This document shows positions 8,914-64,000 of a stretch of 64,000 nt of DNA, one piece after another. Numbering within the stretch: the stretch's first letter is position 1; each line of letters begins with the position of its first letter. This DNA is from an uncultured virus (IMG/VR IMGVR_UViG_3300025853_000072). Lineage: Duplodnaviria; Heunggongvirae; Uroviricota; Caudoviricetes; Crassvirales. The notes beneath the pieces are model-generated. The model was not told the DNA's origin and did no database searches. It saw nothing but the letters and a program-made list of their open reading frames with translations. The position numbers and the translations under genes were made by a program. The DNA lies in IMG/VR virus record IMGVR_UViG_3300025853_000072. The stretch is one strand, 5' to 3'.

Positions 8914-8987
8914 GCACCTGTAGCTCAACGGGATAGAGCAGCGCACTTCTAATGCGCAGGTTCGGGGTTCGAGTCCCTGCGGGTGTA
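8914..8987 (+). tRNA. tRNA-Arg, anticodon TCT (8948-8950), CCA not encoded
   Basis: Acceptor GCACCTG/CGGGTGT; D-arm GCTC..GAGC; anticodon arm GCGCA-CTTCTAA-TGCGC; T-arm CGGGG-TTCGAGT-CCCTG. Confidence 0.95.
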
Positions 8988-9005
8988 CAAATTAAATCAA
9001 CTACT

Positions 9006-58170: not shown

Positions 58171-58492
58171 TTACATTTGATTTGATTACAAATTTTGCGT
58201 AGGCTTTCATTGCTTCACATTCGGAGGAGAGGTGAGTGTAAACCTCAAACACATCACCGTCCTCCATCTTCTTTCGCTTGCGCAACCTCCAGAAATCAAT
58301 CTTCCTATCGATTACGCCTTCGACTACGCCTTGGAATCTAGTCAAGCCAGGCAATACTGTTTGTCTGTCTAGGGAATAGATGTCAATTCTTTTTCTTTCC
58401 TTCAGAGACTGCCTCCCTGCTGGAACTGTTATGTGAGTTTTATTTTTGTAAAACGTAATGTCTTTAAGTTTTATTTTTTCCATGTCAGTCAT
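58163..58492 (-). CDS. Hypothetical protein (AT-richer than neighbours)
   Basis: Probable start MTDMEKIK. Confidence 0.55.
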   Translation of the reverse strand: MTDMEKIKLKDITFYKNKTHITVPAGRQSLKERKRIDIYSLDRQTVLPGLTRFQGVVEGVIDRKIDFWRLRKRKKMEDGDVFEVYTHLSSECEAMKAYAKFVIKSNVND

Positions 58493-59078
58493 CTTCGGGT
58501 TTGAATTTGTCGAGTACGTTCTTCTGATCGACCGTGAAGTACACCCTGTGTGGGCGACTTGGAACACTTGGGCTGTCGTGGATGCGCTCTGACTCGTCAT
58601 CCCAGACCGACTCAATCCATGTGCCGTCGAGCTGATTGAATACGTAGTAAAGGTCTCCCTCCTTGAAGGGGTAGACCTTCTCACCTGTGTACTTGGCGAG
58701 TCGTCGCTCAAGCATAGCAATCTGGTCGTCACGCAGGGCTACGAGTTCCCTTTGCTCACGCCATGCTTTCTTCATGGTGACCTCCTCGTGGGTGGAGTCC
58801 TTGTATGCCTTGGACAACTCTGCAAGTTGGTCATTGAGCGTGGCAATCTCGTCGAGTAGCTTGTCAGCATACCCCTTCATCCTGTCGTACTCCTCGGTCA
58901 TGAACGCAAGCTTCTTGGTGAGGGATTCTTCACGCCCTGTCTGTTCGTGCCATGCCTTGGTTGCCGCCTGCTGACGGAACTCCATCGACTCGATGGTTTG
59001 CTTGGCACGGCTGATGGCTGACTCGCAGTACCGCACAGCGGCTTCGAGTTCGTTCTTGTTTTCTTGTACTGATGTCAT
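58485..59078 (-). CDS. Coiled-coil hypothetical protein
   Basis: 197-aa ORF, ATGA-coupled. Confidence 0.7.
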   Translation of the reverse strand: MTSVQENKNELEAAVRYCESAISRAKQTIESMEFRQQAATKAWHEQTGREESLTKKLAFMTEEYDRMKGYADKLLDEIATLNDQLAELSKAYKDSTHEEVTMKKAWREQRELVALRDDQIAMLERRLAKYTGEKVYPFKEGDLYYVFNQLDGTWIESVWDDESERIHDSPSVPSRPHRVYFTVDQKNVLDKFKPEDD

Positions 59079-59314
59079 GAGTGGTAGATAAATGAAAAGT
59101 GTTCACGAATAGATCGTCCGTAGGGGCTGTGGAACCCGTAGCTGTGAGTGCCAGGCAGTGGCTTGTTCTCCACCATGAAGCAGAGAACATTGTAAGGGTC
59201 GAGTTTAAACGTTGCGCCTGTCTCGGTGGCTGCTTCGAGAAGCATCTCGGGGTCGTGCACGCACACCTCTTGGACAACGTAATCGAAGTAATCTTGGATG
59301 TCTGATAATGTCAT
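59075..59314 (-). CDS. Hypothetical early protein
   Basis: ATGA-coupled ORF. Confidence 0.65.
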   Translation of the reverse strand: MTLSDIQDYFDYVVQEVCVHDPEMLLEAATETGATFKLDPYNVLCFMVENKPLPGTHSYGFHSPYGRSIREHFSFIYHS

Positions 59315-59535
59315 GCGTTCTGTTCTTCGTGAATACTGATGATGTGTTCTGCCACCTGCTCTTCGATGCGGTCCACTACCTCGTCCACCTGATCGTAAGT
59401 GAACCCGTGGGTCTGACGTAGGTACTTCTGAAGTAGTTGGTATGCACTCTTGACGTGGGTGTCAAGGCTGTTGGCATTGAAGCAGTCGCTGACTGCCACT
59501 CGGATGTCGAGGTCTGTCTGTGATTCGATAGTCAT
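59311..59535 (-). CDS. Hypothetical early protein
   Basis: ATGA-coupled ORF. Confidence 0.65.
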   Translation of the reverse strand: MTIESQTDLDIRVAVSDCFNANSLDTHVKSAYQLLQKYLRQTHGFTYDQVDEVVDRIEEQVAEHIISIHEEQNA

Positions 59536-59672
59536 GCGTTTCGGTGTTGATTGTATTGATTCATGATTTGCTCAACGGTCATGCCGTCGTTCAGGGATTC
59601 AGGTCGCCTGTCCATCCAGTACACAAGGGAGCGGAGGTAGTTGGCGGCGTAGTCATAGGGTTGTTCATTCAT
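59532..59672 (-). CDS. Small hypothetical early protein (MNEQPYDYAANYLRS...)
   Basis: Start re-assigned to ATG 59672. Confidence 0.55.
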   Translation of the reverse strand: MNEQPYDYAANYLRSLVYWMDRRPESLNDGMTVEQIMNQYNQHRNA

Positions 59673-60267
59673 CGGTCTTGAGTTTCTTGGGGATACGGAA
59701 AGCGTGCATGGTGTAGTCGTCGATGTCGATGAAGGCTTCGTTGCGGTAGTACACAGAGGAGATGAACTCACCCATTTGTGCAAGGTTGTGCAGGGATTGG
59801 TGAGGATTGTCGTCGGTGCTGTTGTCCATCACATCGGAGGAGACACGAGCCACAAGTGACATACACAGGGGGTAGTAGTCCCATGCCACGCAGGAATCCT
59901 GTTGGTCCCACGTCAGCCAGATATGCTCGGTGGTGGAAGAGTTCTCGTATCGTGAGGCATCAACCTCGACGATGCGGAACACCTCGACACTCACGTCATC
60001 CATGTACTCTGCAACGTAGTCGTCGTGGTCCATGTCTGAGGGGACGCAAGCCTTGTAGTTGTCAGGGTCGCGGTCCATGGTGACAAAGGTGTGCATCATG
60101 TCACGGCTGTGTTCGATGTTGACACACATCTCGTCCTTGCGGTAGTCGTCGAGGTTTTGCTTGATGTGCTTGATGGCGGACTCTTCGTCGGGGAAGAACT
60201 CGCAAGTGGTGTCGGAGTAGCCTTCGTACAGGCCGCACACTCCGTGGATTACTGCATAAATTTTCAT
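59665..60267 (-). CDS. Acidic hypothetical early protein
   Basis: 200-aa ORF preceded by the TCAAACTTCAATTCA leader. Confidence 0.75.
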   Translation of the reverse strand: MKIYAVIHGVCGLYEGYSDTTCEFFPDEESAIKHIKQNLDDYRKDEMCVNIEHSRDMMHTFVTMDRDPDNYKACVPSDMDHDDYVAEYMDDVSVEVFRIVEVDASRYENSSTTEHIWLTWDQQDSCVAWDYYPLCMSLVARVSSDVMDNSTDDNPHQSLHNLAQMGEFISSVYYRNEAFIDIDDYTMHAFRIPKKLKTDE

Positions 60268-60310
60268 AGGTAGTGAATTGAAGTTTGAAAATGATTGATA
60301 AGTATTGTCT

Positions 60311-60350
60311 GTATATATACTCTCTTCACTCTGTTCAGAGAGATATATAC
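60311..60350 (-). promoter_or_regulatory. Conserved tandem-GA hairpin, copy A
   Basis: Minus strand GTATATAT-CTCTCTGAAC-AGA-GTGAAGAGAG-TATATATAC. Confidence 0.75.
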
Positions 60351-60360
60351 ATACATACTA

Positions 60361-60412
60361 TAGAAGGGAGGAGGGGACTCGAACACCTCGGACGCACCGA
60401 CTGCGCTCCCTT
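60361..60412 (-). ncRNA. tRNA-like element lacking an anticodon arm
   Basis: Acceptor AAGGGAG/CTCCCTT; D-like arm CGC-AGTCGGT-GCG; T-arm GAGGTG-TTCGAGT-CCCCTC; 3' CTA. Confidence 0.7.
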
Positions 60413-60430
60413 GAAAAAAGTCAGGGTTTG

Positions 60431-60480
60431 GCCTGACGCTTCAGGTAAAAAAGTGAGGGGATAGCCTGACGTTTCAGGTA
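60431..60480. repeat. Two copies of palindrome GCCTGACG(C/T)TTCAGGTA
   Basis: 60431-60447 and 60464-60480; CCTGA-N4-TCAGG. Confidence 0.8.
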
Positions 60481-60506
60481 GTTACCCCCTCGTGGTCAAA
60501 CTTCAA

Positions 60507-60704
60507 TTAACCAAAGTGAGATGCGTGGTACATGATGTCCTCGTCGTGGAGACGGAAGGACGTTGCATTCTGAAGTGCCGAGTCCCATACGCTGTCGATG
60601 TAGACAGCATACTGCTTGGGTTCGCACTCCACTACCGATGCGTTGTACCCATCATCTGTGAGTACGGAAACGCATTTGTCGCAAAGGTCTTGTGTGATTT
60701 TCAT
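60507..60704 (-). CDS. Hypothetical early protein
   Basis: Start MKITQDL, ATGA-coupled. Confidence 0.6.
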   Translation of the reverse strand: MKITQDLCDKCVSVLTDDGYNASVVECEPKQYAVYIDSVWDSALQNATSFRLHDEDIMYHASHFG

Positions 60705-60928
60705 GAGTTTACTGCGATTACATATTTTTCTTTGATAGACCACTTGAGCATCCGTTTCTTCTCCTCTTCGCTCTCCCAATCGAACATCATTGTGGCGTCA
60801 GCGATGTTCCGAATCCATTCAGGGTCGTGGCGTGAAACCACGTTCAAGCGGTCGAGGAACTCGCCGTAGTGAAAGCCGTTCAGGTACAGCACGGCGGAGC
60901 CGATGGTGGGGAAGTTTGATTCAGTCAT
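60701..60928 (-). CDS. Hypothetical early protein
   Basis: 75-aa ORF after the leader motif. Confidence 0.65.
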   Translation of the reverse strand: MTESNFPTIGSAVLYLNGFHYGEFLDRLNVVSRHDPEWIRNIADATMMFDWESEEEKKRMLKWSIKEKYVIAVNS

Positions 60929-60954
60929 GGGTTTGAAGTTTGAAGTTTGACATT

Positions 60955-61010
60955 GAGAGGGTTGTATATTACCTTCTTCATAAATTCAGAAGGTATATAT
61001 ACTACCTCTC
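60955..61010 (-). promoter_or_regulatory. Conserved tandem-GA hairpin, copy B
   Basis: Minus strand GAGAGG..GTATATATA-CCTTCTGAA-TTTA-TGAAGAAGG-TAATATAC..CCTCTC. Confidence 0.75.
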
Positions 61011-61012
61011 TA

Positions 61013-61198
61013 TTAAGGTTGGTCGGTGGTGCCGATGCCGAAGTAAGAGAGGTCGAGCCATGTGTCCTCGTTGTACGCCTCGGCAACCATTGAGGTTGCT
61101 TCGTAGTCGCGGCACTCGGAGTAGTAGGCGTACGCCTCGATGAGTTCGTCGTGACAAAGGTCACGGAATGGGTTGAAGTATTCGTTGAAGTTTGACAT
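61013..61198 (-). CDS. Small acidic early protein
   Basis: 61-aa ORF. Confidence 0.6.
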   Translation of the reverse strand: MSNFNEYFNPFRDLCHDELIEAYAYYSECRDYEATSMVAEAYNEDTWLDLSYFGIGTTDQP

Positions 61199-61204
61199 GG
61201 TAAA

Positions 61205-61444
61205 TCACTGATTTTGAATGACTTTGAAGGTTTTGTTCCACACGGTCCACCCCGTGTTTGCGAAGTAGTCCTGTGCCGAGCGGATGGCTTCCTCTTTCGT
61301 GAGAGCCTTGATTTTGTGAGGGCCGCGCCAATCATCGCGGTCCCTCCCGTAGTATACGTAGTACTCGAATGTATGAAGTCCTGCCTTTGCTTTCATGGCT
61401 TCGTAGTGTGTTCCCTTCGCAGGGTAGCGTTCCCAAATGTTCAT
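61205..61444 (-). CDS. Hypothetical early protein
   Basis: 79-aa ATGA-coupled ORF. Confidence 0.6.
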   Translation of the reverse strand: MNIWERYPAKGTHYEAMKAKAGLHTFEYYVYYGRDRDDWRGPHKIKALTKEEAIRSAQDYFANTGWTVWNKTFKVIQNQ

Positions 61445-61869
61445 GATGTTTGATTTTCGGTTTGACGTGCAGGCAACTCGACCTTCGTGGTGGCTCCACC
61501 AACAACGAAGTCGGGGTTGCGTACCTCTGACTGCGCTTGGAAGTCGTAGATGGCGATTTCGTTTCGGTGCTTCGCAAGTTCCAAGGCTACGTACTTGCTA
61601 CGAACCACGTCGGAAACCTCGATGAAGGCCATTCCTGCATCCACCCAGCCCCCGATCACCTGTGTGTCTGGGTCGAGCATCTCTGATGCCATGCTTGTCA
61701 TGGCAAGACAGAACTTATTGAACGAAAGGCTGTCGTTTTCAACGACAAGAGAAGGGACTTCGGTGCCGCCTACTGCGTAGCCACGGCCTGTGAAGGTCTT
61801 TTGGTCAGCGTTTACGCTGAAGCCCTCGCCGTCTTGCAGGGCCATGTAAAGAGATTGCAATGATGCCAT
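61441..61869 (-). CDS. Early protein, possible SAM-lyase-like fold
   Basis: Start ATG 61869 (MASLQSLY); IGGWVD...FIEVS...LA...NEIAIYDF. Confidence 0.65.
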   Translation of the reverse strand: MASLQSLYMALQDGEGFSVNADQKTFTGRGYAVGGTEVPSLVVENDSLSFNKFCLAMTSMASEMLDPDTQVIGGWVDAGMAFIEVSDVVRSKYVALELAKHRNEIAIYDFQAQSEVRNPDFVVGGATTKVELPARQTENQTS

Positions 61870-61888
61870 TGTAAATGAATTGAAGTTT

Positions 61889-61941
61889 GATACAGACACC
61901 CCAAAGGGGTGTTTCGCCTACTCAAGGCTCATCAGTGTATC
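61889..61941 (-). ncRNA. Type I hammerhead ribozyme; predicted cleavage between 61895 and 61894
   Basis: GAUACA-CUGAUGA-GCCU(UGAGU)AGGC-GAAA-CACCCC(UUU)GGGGUG-UC|-UGUAUC: complete core and three perfect stems. Confidence 0.93.
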
Positions 61942-61953
61942 TGTGATTGGATA

Positions 61954-62127
61954 TTACATATCCATCAAATCCTCCAGGGTCATCTGCTCAAGGCAAGACA
62001 TCTCATCCCACGTAGCCGTGGCACGGACTGATTCGAAGGAAAGGTGAGAATCGAGGAGTTCAGCAATCAGCTGAGAACGGACATCAGTGAATGTGTTCAT
62101 GATGAATTGAAGTTTGAAGTTTGACAT
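61954..62127 (-). CDS. Small early protein (start 62127 or 62100)
   Basis: ORF ending 12 nt before the ribozyme. Confidence 0.55.
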   Translation of the reverse strand: MSNFKLQFIMNTFTDVRSQLIAELLDSHLSFESVRATATWDEMSCLEQMTLEDLMDM

Positions 62128-62128
62128 T

Positions 62129-62191
62129 GAGAGGTTCTGTATATATACTCTCTTCACTACGTTCAGAGAGGGTATATATACTAGAACTCTC
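62129..62191 (-). promoter_or_regulatory. Conserved tandem-GA hairpin, copy C
   Basis: Minus strand GAGAGTTCT.GTATATATAC.CTCTCTGAAC-GTA-GTGAAGAGA-GTATATATAC-AGAACCTCTC. Confidence 0.8.
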
Positions 62192-62203
62192 TAGTAGTTG
62201 GGA

Positions 62204-62305
62204 TTATTGCCCTCGGCCCCTCAACAAGTTGAGAAAGGCGAGCACACAGAGAACACAGAGTGTTCCGTATACGCAGAGCATGAAGAGTTGGAGAATGATT
62301 GTCAT
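62204..62305 (-). CDS. 33-aa hydrophobic membrane peptide (absent from ORF track)
   Basis: MTIILQLFMLCVYGTLCVLCVLAFLNLLRGRGQ*. Confidence 0.5.
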   Translation of the reverse strand: MTIILQLFMLCVYGTLCVLCVLAFLNLLRGRGQ

Positions 62306-62315
62306 CTTCGATGAA

Positions 62316-62471
62316 TTAGAGTTTTTCCATTGACATTGCTAAAGCAATGAGACCGATTTGAGTCTCGTAGAGACTTGCGTTTTCAGGTATGCTTGAATCA
62401 ATTCCATTGATTTCAAGGATGTTATCGATTTCATCGATAAGACGGAGCACGAAGGAATGTTTGGTATTCAT
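62316..62471 (-). CDS. Small early protein
   Basis: Probable start MNTKHSF. Confidence 0.55.
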   Translation of the reverse strand: MNTKHSFVLRLIDEIDNILEINGIDSSIPENASLYETQIGLIALAMSMEKL

Positions 62472-62481
62472 TTTCAATGAA

Positions 62482-62985
62482 TTAGATGATGAATGGAACG
62501 TCGTCGAAGCCAACTTCGTTGATTGATTGAGGAGTCGAAGACTCCATGTGGATGGCCAAGCAAGCTGTCAGGGCTTCAACCTTGGCTTCCAAAGAAGCCA
62601 ACTTGTCATCCTCTGCCTTCACTTCGGCTTTCTTGGCTGCTCTCTGAGCAGCTCCTGTGTGCTCTGAGACAGCCTTGGCTGACTCAGCAGCTTCCTTAAC
62701 GGAAGCCTTCGGAGCCTTCTTGGAAGGCTTGACTGGCCCAACTTCGTTGGTCTTCATCGAAGCTCTGTCCATTTGGTCTGCCACCTTCTGTGAAGGTGTT
62801 CTCTTCGCCGTCTTACGACGGCCCTTCTTGGCCTTCTTCTTGGTCGGCTTAACCTCTTCGAGGTTATTGACGAAGTCCATAGCTTCTTGCAGAAGCTTCA
62901 GAGCCAGAGCTTTACGCTCTGAAGTAGGACGGAAGGTGGCTTGGTTCACTGCCTTACGGCAGTCTTGGAATTGGAAGTTATTCAT
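62482..62985 (-). CDS. First early gene: Lys/Ala-rich protein with SSB-like acidic tail
   Basis: 167 aa; KKKAKKGRRK; ends GFDDVPFII; preceded by the leader motif. Confidence 0.75.
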   Translation of the reverse strand: MNNFQFQDCRKAVNQATFRPTSERKALALKLLQEAMDFVNNLEEVKPTKKKAKKGRRKTAKRTPSQKVADQMDRASMKTNEVGPVKPSKKAPKASVKEAAESAKAVSEHTGAAQRAAKKAEVKAEDDKLASLEAKVEALTACLAIHMESSTPQSINEVGFDDVPFII

Positions 62986-63667
62986 TGAAAATGAATTTGA
63001 AGTTTGACCTAGAACCGACTTCTCAAGGCTCTAGGAGATAGTAGTAAGGAAGAGAAGTCGTAAGACTCCTCTTCTCTTTCTTACTACATCTCTACTCTGC
63101 CACCATCTTATTCCTTTACGAAGTAAAGTAATAGTTTGACCGAATCCTCGGTAGTGACAGGAAGCCAACAAGTTGGCTATGTGTGCTACTGACGCAGCGC
63201 ACCGCTCCGCCAATGGATTTTGATGTTGACAAAACATTCTCAATAACCCATGGTTATTGCAATTACCAACAGCATCGAGGTTGGTAGTGTCTAGTCAGGT
63301 TGGAGTAATACTCCAAGTTGGAAAGGGAAAGGGGGTGATTGTCAACGCATTATGCCTAGGAACAAGCTGCGTACCCTTTTAGCCAGTTCTCTGTTAAACC
63401 AAAGGTTTAAGCTACAGGTCTAAAGACCTGTCGGTGAGATGGTTAGCGTCAAAAGTTACCCCACAATCTTTGATTGTGTCGAAGGGAGGGGGGTCAGAAA
63501 ACTCGTTTTCTGTGTCGAATTGGCCTCTCGTCAGATACATATAATCCCCACCCTACGTATTTCTCACCCATTTTTCGAGGCGTGCGATCCGCTCGTCAAA
63601 GCGGGAGAGCACGTAACAGTCTCGTTAGGAAGCGGTTAAGGCTATTGATTAAAGTAACAATTCAATC

Positions 63668-63698
63668 TTGACTTTTAAGAATTTCTGTTATACCTTTG
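63668..63698 (+). promoter_or_regulatory. Bacteroidota promoter TTG-N20-TACCTTTG
   Basis: TTG at 63668-63670; -7 element at 63691-63698. Confidence 0.7.
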
Positions 63699-63827
63699 CT
63701 ATTCTATATGGGGTGCTTTGGCGCACCCACACTAAATCAATAAGGATGTATAACTGTTCAATACAGGTTAGCTGTGTCCAGGCGTTAAGAGGCGGTTCTT
63801 GATCATCTGAGGTAAAAACAAAAGCAT

Positions 63828-63835
63828 TATATTTG
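63828..63835 (+). promoter_or_regulatory. -7 promoter TATATTTG, 4 nt before ATG 63840
   Basis: TAnnTTTG match. Confidence 0.75.
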
Positions 63836-63839
63836 CTGC

Positions 63840-64000
63840 ATGGCTAGAAAAGTAGACAAGCGGAGCCGTGCTCTCAGGCGCAACCTGAGGAAGCAGGCCC
63901 GCAAGGGGACACTCTCTGCACGTGAGCAGAAGGATCTTCTTGATCAAGAGGGTCGATTTAGAAAGGCGGCACGCCGTCGACGACCATACACACTTGGTCT
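63840..64000 (+). CDS. 5' part of the junction-spanning protein (MARKVDKRSRALRRNLRK...)
   Basis: In frame with 1..1194 through the terminal repeat. Confidence 0.8.
   Translation, partial: MARKVDKRSRALRRNLRKQARKGTLSAREQKDLLDQEGRFRKAARRRRPYTLG
63903..64000. repeat. Terminal direct repeat, right copy
   Basis: 96/98 identical to 1..98. Confidence 0.95.

What the first reader, a model, noticed from the sequence alone, without database searches (positions are those of the whole stretch)
60276..63100. Candidate system: early operon punctuated by diverse RNA-processing elements
Seen, in transcription order: a long hairpin (63035-63092), hairpin C, a hammerhead, hairpin B, then twin CCUGA hairpins with a tRNA-like element and hairpin A. 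Each spacer ends in the same UCAAACUUCAA leader and a start codon. I found no TAnnTTTG promoter in this stretch. Established: T7 early mRNA is cut into units by RNase III hairpins. Inference: one long early transcript is diced by self-cleavage, RNase P/Z and RNase III-type sites into mRNAs with a standard translation leader.
Basis: partly seen in the sequence, partly recalled or inferred. Interest (0 to 1): 0.88.

Follow-up and report, generated by a model that had tools for sequence, protein, structure and literature searches.

The report
Ribozyme-and-hairpin punctuated phage early operon
The first genes of this uncultured Bacteroidota-type phage are separated by a genuine self-cutting hammerhead RNA, three copies of a conserved long hairpin and a tRNA look-alike, each followed by one shared leader; the hammerhead fits a 2011 idea, but the hairpin's tip recurs in unrelated phages and is unexplained.

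Summary
The leader occurs 9 times against 0.03 expected. The hammerhead descriptor hits once and in 0 of 200 shuffles.

About 25 related IMG/VR contigs carry the same operon. Covariation supports three elements:
- Hammerhead: 9 of 17 pairs compensatory.
- Hairpin family A/B/C: 19 of 26.
- First long hairpin: 17 of 33.

Genes sit in shuffled cassettes joined at the leader. The same downstream gene can follow a hammerhead or a hairpin.

The reading "one early transcript diced by several RNA-processing routes" is partly supported. The hammerhead is solid. RNase III, P and Z cleavage is inference only.

The A/B/C stems carry almost no G-U pairs. Their 19-nt tip recurs exactly on unrelated stems in other phages. 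In 7 of 7 GC-rich cases it lies antisense and in frame inside replication-initiator-like genes. A DNA-level role for the hairpins is therefore a serious rival.

Verdict: new variant of a known kind (Perreault 2011). This scan noted similar operons on other DNA.

The parts
63035..63092 (-). START long hairpin before the first gene (about 24 bp)
   Evidence: Fold -30.6 kcal/mol, z -4.4. In a 9-sequence alignment, 17 of 33 predicted pairs are compensatory and G-U pairs are present.
63008..63036 (-). Small hairpin abutting the leader. Its loop repeats the 5'-arm sequence of the long hairpin apex.
   Evidence: Invariant U-G pair in 9/9 sequences. The loop and the long-hairpin arm change together in window and L024 versus the 7 others.
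62997..63007 (-). Leader copy 1, before the 167-aa gene (62482-62985)
62123..62196 (-). Hairpin C, member of the HP family
   Evidence: Model R1 92.9 bits; fold z -6.3
62107..62124 (-). Tandem leader copies after hairpin C
61889..61965 (-). Type I hammerhead with an extra upstream hairpin. Predicted cut between 61895 and 61894.
   Evidence: RF03152 33.5 bits, E 0.007, below gathering score 56.3. Descriptor: 1 hit, 0/200 shuffles. Across 21 relatives, 98.9% of cells paired and 9/17 pairs compensatory.
61880..61890 (-). Leader after the hammerhead. Its first two bases belong to stem I.
61185..61195 (-). Leader sequence used as codons 2-5 of a 61-aa gene (ATG at 61198)
60949..61015 (-). Hairpin B, HP family subtype with a bulged A and a different loop
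   Evidence: R1 48.9 bits; fold z -5.6
60933..60950 (-). Tandem leader copies after hairpin B
60496..60506 (+). Inverted copy of the leader (anti-leader) directly after a stop codon
   Evidence: Conserved in relatives.
60447..60491 (-). GC-rich hairpin with inner CCTGA stem, followed by a T6 run; terminator-like
   Evidence: Fold. The apex is conserved in relatives, but the T-run only in some.
60414..60445 (-). Second CCTGA hairpin, or an alternative 6-bp hairpin, followed by a T6 run; terminator-like
   Evidence: Terminator scan hit 60437-60420
60364..60412 (-). tRNA-like element TLS-1: 7-bp acceptor-like stem, D-arm-like hairpin, T-arm with a tRNA-type loop, no anticodon arm
   Evidence: Across 11 relatives, 98.3% of cells paired and 3 pairs compensatory. 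Not called by ARAGORN or Rfam.
60295..60364 (-). Hairpin A, HP family
   Evidence: R1 59.5 bits; fold z -3.4
60278..60288 (-). Leader before the 200-aa gene (59665-60267)

Best explanation
This is the promoter-proximal operon of small genes of an uncultured podophage of Bacteroidota type. It is built from cassettes of the form leader, gene(s), 3' element.

Proposed mechanism:
- The stretch is most likely transcribed as one RNA from upstream of 63100.
- The RNA is divided at the structured spacers.
- The hammerhead cuts itself 4 nt before a leader (sequence and covariation shown; cleavage inferred).
- The roughly 25-bp hairpins (START, C, B, A) form in the RNA. They either cap the 3' end of the upstream message or are cut by a double-strand RNase, as at T7 early sites (inferred).
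- The operon ends at terminator-like hairpins.
- The tRNA-like element offers an RNase P/Z-type cut (inferred).
- Each downstream message then starts with the same G-free leader about 20 nt before its ATG. This suits hosts that do not use Shine-Dalgarno pairing (inferred).
- The shared leader also serves as the crossover point that shuffles cassettes between phages.
For: Hammerhead:
- All core positions are invariant in 21 relatives, 98.9% of cells pair, 9/17 pairs are compensatory, and 0/500 shuffles match.
- A G-U pair in stem I is kept in 20/21 sequences, so the structure is read on the sense strand.
- The descriptor hits once in the window and in 0/200 shuffles.

START hairpins: 17/33 pairs are compensatory, with G-U pairs including an invariant U-G in 9/9.

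HP family: 19/26 pairs are compensatory, 0/500 shuffles match. All 58 best hits are in gene orientation, and the window has exactly 3.

Position:
- Elements fill the gap between a stop codon and the leader.
- The hairpin base or the ribozyme cut lies 4 nt before the leader in most copies.

Interchange between relatives:
- Gene family F03 is preceded by HP 14 times, HP2 once and a hammerhead twice.
- F02 is preceded by a hammerhead in 16/16 junctions that have F00 upstream, but by HP in L014.
- With identical flanking genes, HP and the unrelated-sequence hairpin HP2 replace each other, 6 versus 3 and 6 versus 1.

Other support:
- No host-type promoter motif lies inside the stretch.
- Terminator-like hairpins with T-runs close the operon.
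- In 7 unrelated phage contexts the same hairpin tip sits in sense 5-30 nt before an ATG.
- Precedent: clustered hammerheads flanking prophage genes, proposed to cut long phage RNAs (PMC3088659, passages read).
Against: - No RNA data exist.
- The hammerhead scores below Rfam gathering thresholds (33.5 versus 56.3).
- The HP stems behave like DNA palindromes. There are 0 G-U cells in 17 central pairs of 44 distinct copies. Sense is more stable in 18 of 43 hairpins and antisense in 25.
- The HP tip is conserved exactly on stems as short as 4-9 bp elsewhere, too short for RNase III.
- The tip lies antisense and in frame inside replication-initiator-like ORFs in 7/7 GC-rich contigs.
- The tRNA-like element fails tRNA detectors.
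- The T-run after the terminator-like hairpin is not kept in all relatives.
- The strict same-flank swap is only hairpin for hairpin. Hammerhead-for-hairpin exchange comes with a change of the upstream gene.
Confidence: 0.45

Rival explanations
1. Hairpins A/B/C, and perhaps START, act as DNA rather than RNA. They would be a palindromic module used at replication origins, at unwinding or priming sites, or as a recombination junction. Only the hammerhead, and possibly the tRNA-like element, process RNA. The punctuation pattern would then be partly a by-product of cassette shuffling at palindromes.
For: - The central 17 pairs of the family are pure Watson-Crick in 44 distinct copies, with no strand asymmetry in stability.
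- The arms carry a self-complementary AT-rich 10-mer.
- The exact 19-nt tip occurs in 78 IMG/VR loci, on unrelated stems in about 19 unrelated contigs of GC 33-67%. It also occurs in 5 genome or MAG contigs.
- In 7/7 GC-rich contigs the tip lies inside a replication-initiator-like ORF. Pfam gives Phage_rep_O in 2, DUF1376 in 1 and HTH_36 in 1.
- In those 7, the tip is antisense and always in the same frame. In gene sense it is preceded by iteron-like repeats and AT- or purine-rich tracts. That layout is origin-like.
- Several other contexts are divergent intergenic regions.
- An earlier scan note reached a similar view on another genome (e1-5895089).
Against: - There are three copies within 2 kb here and up to 6 exact tip matches per related contig, some of them inverted duplicates. 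All lie between small genes.
- Orientation is always the same as the genes, at a fixed distance from leader and ATG.
- The purine-rich loop with a covarying 2-bp apical stem is on the RNA-sense strand.
- HP2 hairpins without this tip replace HP at the same junctions.
- No origin has been mapped.
Confidence: 0.3
2. Each hairpin-plus-leader unit is a promoter. The hairpin, perhaps extruded or single-stranded, is recognised by an RNA polymerase, and the leader is the initially transcribed sequence. The hammerhead junction would be the only true processing site.
For: - About 40 nt of sequence, loop included, are strongly conserved at fixed spacing to a conserved leader.
- No host-type promoter motif lies in the stretch.
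- In the crAss-like phage phi14:2, early transcripts made by the virion polymerase had no detectable common upstream motif, and the enzyme transcribed only single-stranded DNA in vitro (preprint 10.1101/2020.03.07.982082, passages read).
- In Microcystis phage Mvi-JY20 a sigma-70-like hexamer pair overlaps the 5' arm of a hairpin with this tip (my reading).
Against: - No virion RNA polymerase was found. The 2859-aa ORF is a DarB-like polyvalent protein, the 2088-aa ORF is a crAss muzzle homologue, and neither has a DFDxD motif.
- The first gene of the operon is preceded by a different hairpin, START.
- In L002 and L017/L026 the gene after the tRNA-like element has no hairpin, so read-through suffices.
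- The hairpins are far larger than known hairpin promoters.
Confidence: 0.1
3. The hairpins are selfish palindromic repeats with no function for the phage. They would resemble in-frame palindromic elements known from some bacteria, tolerated at gene junctions and in protein linkers.
For: - The family is multi-copy and located at junctions.
- The tip is present in frame, encoding the peptide SSLRSE, in 7/7 unrelated initiator-like ORFs.
- G-U pairs are absent.
- An earlier scan note describes palindromic cassette ends at junctions or in frame in Bacteroidota (e1-3920493; not tested here).
Against: - Only the 19-nt tip is shared between contexts and the stems are unrelated. A mobile copy would carry its arms.
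- Orientation and spacing to the leader and ATG are strict.
- No transposase or nuclease co-occurs. The widest protein family shared among apex-bearing loci covers 4 of 22.
Confidence: 0.1

Closest known systems
Clustered hammerhead ribozymes flanking genes in phages and prophages (Perreault et al. 2011, PMC3088659; passages read)
   Same: A hammerhead sits between co-oriented small phage genes, close to the next start codon. The authors proposed that long phage RNAs are cut into gene-length mRNAs. The HF1/HF2 example lies 13 nt before an early gene.
   Different: Here there is only one hammerhead per operon. The other junctions hold long hairpins and a tRNA-like element, all messages share one leader, and related phages give comparative evidence of cassette exchange.
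T7 early mRNA RNase III sites (Dunn and Studier 1973; seen only in a reference list; details recalled)
   Same: Long hairpins lie in the intergenic spacers of a promoter-proximal early operon. One precedes the first gene, and the operon ends at a terminator.
   Different: No cleavage is shown. The stems are near-perfect without the internal loop typical of T7 sites (recalled). The tip is sequence-conserved across unrelated phages, which RNase III recognition does not explain.
PeSL promoter-early stem-loop cassettes of T4-type phages (PMC2839356, listing only; PMC4122927, abstract read)
   Same: Small conserved intergenic stem-loop motifs are repeated between variable early genes. They serve as points of homologous exchange that shuffle gene cassettes.
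   Different: PeSLs are composite terminator/promoter motifs. No promoter motif was found in the units here, and a ribozyme and tRNA-like elements take part.
RAGATH-1 hammerhead (Rfam RF03152)
   Same: Best Rfam match over its full length. It has the hammerhead core plus an extra hairpin 5' of stem I.
   Different: The score of 33.5 is below the gathering score of 56.3. Stem II here is a regular 4-bp hairpin.
tRNA punctuation of polycistronic transcripts (mitochondrial model, recalled) and tRNA-like RNase P substrates
   Same: A tRNA-shaped element sits between coding units. In relatives there are arrays of several tRNA-like elements at the same place.
   Different: The element is not a detectable tRNA, lacks an anticodon arm in the window, and its processing is untested.

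Membership tests
Hammerhead ribozyme, type I | Conserved catalytic core (the CUGANGA and GAAA blocks and a non-G nucleotide at the cleavage site) | tested here: met
   The core aligns to the Rfam consensus. Core columns are invariant in 21/21 relatives apart from the free N position.
Hammerhead ribozyme, type I | Three helices around the core, supported by covariation, with stem I open-ended | tested here: met
   Stems of 6, 4 and 7 bp. 98.9% of cells paired, 9/17 pairs compensatory, 0/500 shuffles.
Hammerhead ribozyme, type I | Score at or above the Rfam gathering threshold | tested here: not met
   RF03152 33.5 versus 56.3 and RF00008 17.1 versus 48.5. RF00163 21.4 versus 34 in relative L018. 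No hit at gathering in 20 loci.
Hammerhead ribozyme, type I | Self-cleavage activity | not testable with these tools
   Needs in vitro transcription.
tRNA | Cloverleaf recognised by tRNA detectors, with an anticodon arm | tested here: not met
   ARAGORN finds only tRNA-Arg at 8914-8988. No Rfam tRNA hit at E up to 10 in 59600-64000. 0 tRNAs in 23 related loci. The window copy has no anticodon arm.
tRNA-like element (acceptor/T-arm mimic) | 7-bp acceptor-like stem stacked on a T-arm with a tRNA-type T-loop, plus a D-arm-like hairpin | tested here: met
   98.3% of cells paired in 11 sequences, with 2 T-stem pairs and 1 D-stem pair compensatory. The acceptor stem is invariant and so uninformative. 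One conserved mismatch in the T-stem and one extra base occur at the junction.
RNase III processing hairpin (T7 type) | About two turns (20 bp or more) of double-stranded RNA in an intergenic spacer | tested here: met
   About 24-25 pairs predicted for START, C and A, and about 20 for B.
RNase III processing hairpin (T7 type) | Cleavage by RNase III | not testable with these tools
   No RNA data. The same tip on 4-9-bp stems elsewhere argues that stem length is not what is conserved.
Intrinsic terminator | GC-rich hairpin directly followed by a T-run | tested here: met
   Scan hit 60437-60420 plus T6. The first hairpin plus T6 is seen in the fold. The T-run is absent in some relatives.
PeSL composite terminator/promoter | Stem-loop joined to an early promoter | tested here: not met
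   No TAnnTTTG motif in the stretch. On the gene strand no sigma-70-like site lies within the operon (60276-63100); the only minus-strand hit is a weak 9/12 match at 63599-63570, upstream of the operon, and the 11/12 site at 62121-62149 is antisense.
Hairpin promoter of a virion RNA polymerase (N4 type) | Phage encodes a virion RNA polymerase; short hairpin of a few bp with a tiny loop (recalled) | tested here: not met
   No polymerase was found in either giant ORF. The hairpins have about 25-bp stems and 11-nt loops.

The most novel reading that the evidence does not exclude
The 19-nt tip of hairpins A/C (CTCTGAACGTAGTGAAGAG) would be a new, widespread nucleic-acid module of tailed phages of bacteria and perhaps archaea. 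Its tandem G-A pairs flank a 2-bp stem and a triloop.

A factor common to many hosts would read it, or it would act by itself. It is deployed at early-gene junctions next to ribozymes and also at origin-like sites inside initiator genes.

In this phage family it would be the functional equivalent of the hammerhead: a new kind of RNA end-forming or processing signal.
Probability: 0.2. Interest if true: 0.85.

Novelty: new variant of a known kind. Interest (0 to 1): 0.6.

Why it matters
What most genomic hammerheads do is still an open question (review PMC6765202, passages read). This phage family offers a natural comparison. One operon design uses a ribozyme, long hairpins and tRNA-like elements at gene boundaries, always in front of one standard leader, and about 25 related genomes show the parts being exchanged. 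That makes the 2011 "ribozymes cut phage operons" idea directly testable with a few constructs.

It also suggests a natural counterpart of engineered insulator parts for hosts that lack Shine-Dalgarno translation.

Separately, the exact conservation of the hairpin tip across unrelated phages, including in frame inside replication-initiator genes, matched nothing relevant in the one literature search run for it. It deserves its own study.

Tried and rejected
No whole genome is held.
- Cultured relatives: there is no nucleotide match for 59600-64000 and no tblastn match for two early proteins in 50,697 phage records.
- Early proteins: 12 were scanned and none reached a Pfam curated cut-off. PHROGs gave only unknown-function or weak hits (best E 1.3e-05) and no RNase, RNA-binding or nuclease family.
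- Virion RNA polymerase: not found.
- Known RNA families for hairpins A/B/C: only chance-level microRNA and snoRNA hits. There was nothing at gathering in 20 related loci.
- Strand test for RNA versus DNA hairpins, using sense versus antisense energy and G-U counts: uninformative.
- Dedicated partner protein for the hairpin tip: no family is shared beyond 4 of 22 apex-bearing loci within 10 kb.
- Literature search for the tip as a 15-mer and an 11-mer, DNA and RNA spelling: 8 papers, all chance primer matches.
- My first classing of L001 (tRNA-like instead of hammerhead) and L022 (no element) was wrong. Both hold hammerheads with insertions of about 110-120 nt in stem III. The claimed hammerhead-to-tRNA-like swap was therefore dropped.
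- Reading the tip as a box C'/D'-type K-loop is a recalled resemblance only and was not tested.

Full report
**What the window is**

The 64-kb window is most of a tailed phage genome.
- The large terminase is 41-48% identical to those of Flavobacterium 'elemo' phages, Cellulophaga phages and an uncultured Caudoviricetes record.
- Terminase, portal, capsid, primase-helicase and ribonucleotide reductase genes are recognised.
- The 2088-aa ORF carries a crAss muzzle domain. The 2859-aa ORF is a DarB-like polyvalent protein.
It is absent from 58449-63690 on both strands.
- The finding lies on the minus strand, at the head of a block of minus-strand genes that runs down to the replication genes.
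- That the block is 'early' is inferred from position and gene content, not shown.

**Observation**

Reading the minus strand, every listed element is present.
- Predicted folds are much more stable than shuffles for the first hairpin (z -4.4), hairpin C (-6.3), B (-5.6), A (-3.4) and the hammerhead region (-3.4).
- The fold is not unusual for the tRNA-like element alone (z -0.95).
- The leader TCAAACTTCAA occurs 9 times against 0.03 expected, all within 60278-63007. One copy is inverted, directly after a stop codon.
- The leader follows the five structured spacers. In a sixth case it forms codons 2-5 of a gene. Four tightly packed gene starts lack it.

**The hammerhead**

- Rfam's best match is the RAGATH-1 hammerhead over its full length, at 33.5 bits and E 0.007. 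This is below the gathering score of 56.3, and nothing passes gathering.
- A descriptor of my own (core blocks plus three stems) hits once in the window, at 61889-61941, and in 0 of 200 dinucleotide shuffles.
- 21 hammerheads from related contigs align without trouble. The core is invariant, 98.9% of cells pair, 9 of 17 pairs show compensatory change, and 0 of 500 shuffles match.
- A G-U pair in stem I is kept in 20 of 21 sequences.
- The predicted cut leaves four bases and then the leader. The leader's first two bases are part of stem I.
- In two relatives stem III carries an insertion of about 110-120 nt.

**Relatives**

Exact-word scans of IMG/VR found the hairpin core in 32 loci and the doubled leader in 6. 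One contig is the same phage as the window. About 25 contigs carry the same operon. In order, it contains:
- a conserved, hairpin-rich non-coding stretch of roughly 600 nt;
- a START double hairpin;
- a 165-200-aa basic protein;
- a series of small genes separated by hammerheads, HP hairpins (the family of A, B and C), HP2 hairpins (different sequence, same size) or tRNA-like elements;
- a conserved anti-leader plus GC hairpin, with a T-run in some relatives only;
- one or several tRNA-like elements;
- a conserved 200-aa gene.

**The hairpin family**

- A covariance model built from 38 copies finds exactly three hits on the gene strand of the window, at 92.9, 59.5 and 48.9 bits. The antisense strand scores about half as well.
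- In the 58 best hits (44 distinct), 92.7% of cells pair, 19 of 26 pairs show compensatory change and 0 of 500 shuffles match. This includes a 2-bp stem inside the loop.
- The 17 inner pairs hold no G-U at all. Sense and antisense folds are equally stable: sense is better in 18 of 43, antisense in 25.
- By contrast, the START hairpins do hold G-U pairs, including an invariant U-G in 9/9, with 17 of 33 pairs compensatory.

**Exchange of elements**

Flanking proteins were clustered, then corrected after reading the loci.
- The gene after F00 is reached through a hammerhead in 16 of 16 junctions.
- F03 is preceded by HP 14 times, HP2 once and a hammerhead twice. In the hammerhead cases the upstream gene is different.
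- F02 follows HP in L014.
- With both flanks the same, only HP and HP2 replace each other (6 versus 3, and 6 versus 1).
- The picture is of cassettes joined at the leader, as in the PeSL cassettes of T4-type phages (abstract of PMC4122927).
- For a downstream gene, a ribozyme and a hairpin are thus interchangeable. That fits a common role in making or protecting RNA ends, but would also fit promoters.

**The tRNA-like element**

- TLS-1 has an invariant 7-bp acceptor-like stem, a D-arm-like hairpin and a T-arm with a tRNA-type loop.
- In 11 relatives 98.3% of cells pair and three pairs covary.
- The arm at the anticodon position varies in length and is absent in the window.
- ARAGORN and Rfam do not call it.
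- A different tRNA-like element in L001 reaches 28.3 bits against a gathering score of 29.

**The surprise**

- The 19-nt tip of hairpins C and most relatives occurs exactly in 78 IMG/VR loci. There are 49 distinct contexts, and 18 of them lack both the AT-rich arm and the leader.
- It also occurs in 5 contigs of the genome collection labelled as very different taxa.
- There the stems are unrelated in sequence and 4-34 bp long.
- In the 19 unrelated contigs the tip is single-copy and no hammerhead is near.
- Two settings recur.
  - In 7 contexts it lies in sense 5-30 nt before an ATG, often at the head of an operon.
  - In 7 GC-rich contigs it lies inside an ORF on the other strand. Pfam gives Phage_rep_O in two, DUF1376 in one, HTH_36 in one and none in three.
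- In those 7 ORFs it is always in the same frame and encodes SSLRSE. In gene sense it comes after iteron-like repeats and AT- or purine-rich tracts. That layout is origin-like.
- A cultured Microcystis phage has a variant on a hairpin of about 20 bp in a 600-bp intergenic region, followed by a CT-rich tract of about 140 nt.
- No protein family is shared among these contigs within 10 kb. A literature search for the tip found nothing relevant.

**Weighing**

- The hammerhead, the START hairpins and the terminator-like end speak for an RNA-level design like that proposed for prophage hammerheads (PMC3088659) and like T7 early RNA (recalled; reference seen).
- For hairpins A/B/C the evidence is split. 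Position, orientation and exchange with a ribozyme favour RNA. The Watson-Crick-only stems and the tip's life elsewhere favour DNA, or a factor that reads the tip rather than the stem.
- I put 0.45 on the RNA-punctuation reading as a whole, 0.3 on a DNA-level role for the hairpins, 0.1 on promoters and 0.1 on selfish repeats.

**Earlier notes of this scan**

Earlier notes describe similar operons on other DNA. One of them (e1-5895089) also judged its hairpin to be a widespread DNA-type palindrome. I reached the wide distribution independently.

Noticed in passing
window 63100-63690 (minus strand): The roughly 600-nt gene-free stretch upstream of the first hairpin is conserved and hairpin-rich in 13 relatives. 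It contains a nearly invariant block, GTGGGGATTATATGTA, at about 63541-63556, preceded by an A-run. This is a candidate early promoter or the start of a long structured leader RNA.
   Followed up: partly
window 63663-63698 and 63828-63835 (plus strand): A conserved TTGAC...TACCTTTG block and a TATATTTG motif face the divergent plus-strand gene that starts at 63840. They look like host-type promoters for the opposite direction.
   Followed up: partly
window 60496-60506 (plus), with 60278-60288 (minus): The inverted leader copy right after a stop codon is conserved in relatives. It could pair over 12-13 bp with the next leader about 210 nt downstream, enclosing the terminator-like hairpins, the tRNA-like element and hairpin A. 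Its function is unknown.
   Followed up: partly
window 62121-62149 (plus strand): The reverse complement of the leader plus the hairpin arm gives a near-consensus sigma-70-type site (TTGACA, 17 nt, TATACT; 11 of 12) pointing antisense to the early genes. It recurs wherever the hairpin is joined to the leader by AATG.
   Followed up: no
L001 2100-2270 and L022 2150-2320: Hammerheads whose stem III loop holds an insertion of about 110-120 nt, with the core and cut site intact.
   Followed up: partly
L017 5220-5460, L018 2709-3040, L022 4458-4700, L016 3541-4010, L008 1874-2284: Arrays of two or three different tRNA-like elements (up to about 140 nt), none called by ARAGORN, at the place where the window has one short element.
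   Followed up: partly
L124, L155, L166, L167, L174, L180, L193 (around the tip match): The reverse complement of the 19-nt hairpin tip lies in the same reading frame in 7 of 7 replication-initiator-like ORFs and encodes SSLRSE. It is flanked by a few complementary bases and, in gene sense, preceded by short direct repeats.
   Followed up: partly
L194 1320-1800 (Microcystis phage Mvi-JY20, PP438412.1): A variant of the tip caps a hairpin of about 20 bp in a 600-bp intergenic region and is followed by a CT-rich tract of about 140 nt. Three copies of a 26-bp palindrome that contains AAACTTCAAA flank it. The resemblance to the leader may be chance.
   Followed up: no
L001 2002-2112 and L032 (before its hammerhead): A 36-aa CxxC...CxxC mini-ORF has its stop codon inside the hammerhead core.
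   Followed up: no
L042 2440-2560 (Haloferax denitrificans contig): The same tip sits on a GC-rich hairpin that overlaps the 3' end of a tRNA-like sequence, with a second T-arm-like sequence about 90 nt further on. This may be the border of an integrated element.
   Followed up: no
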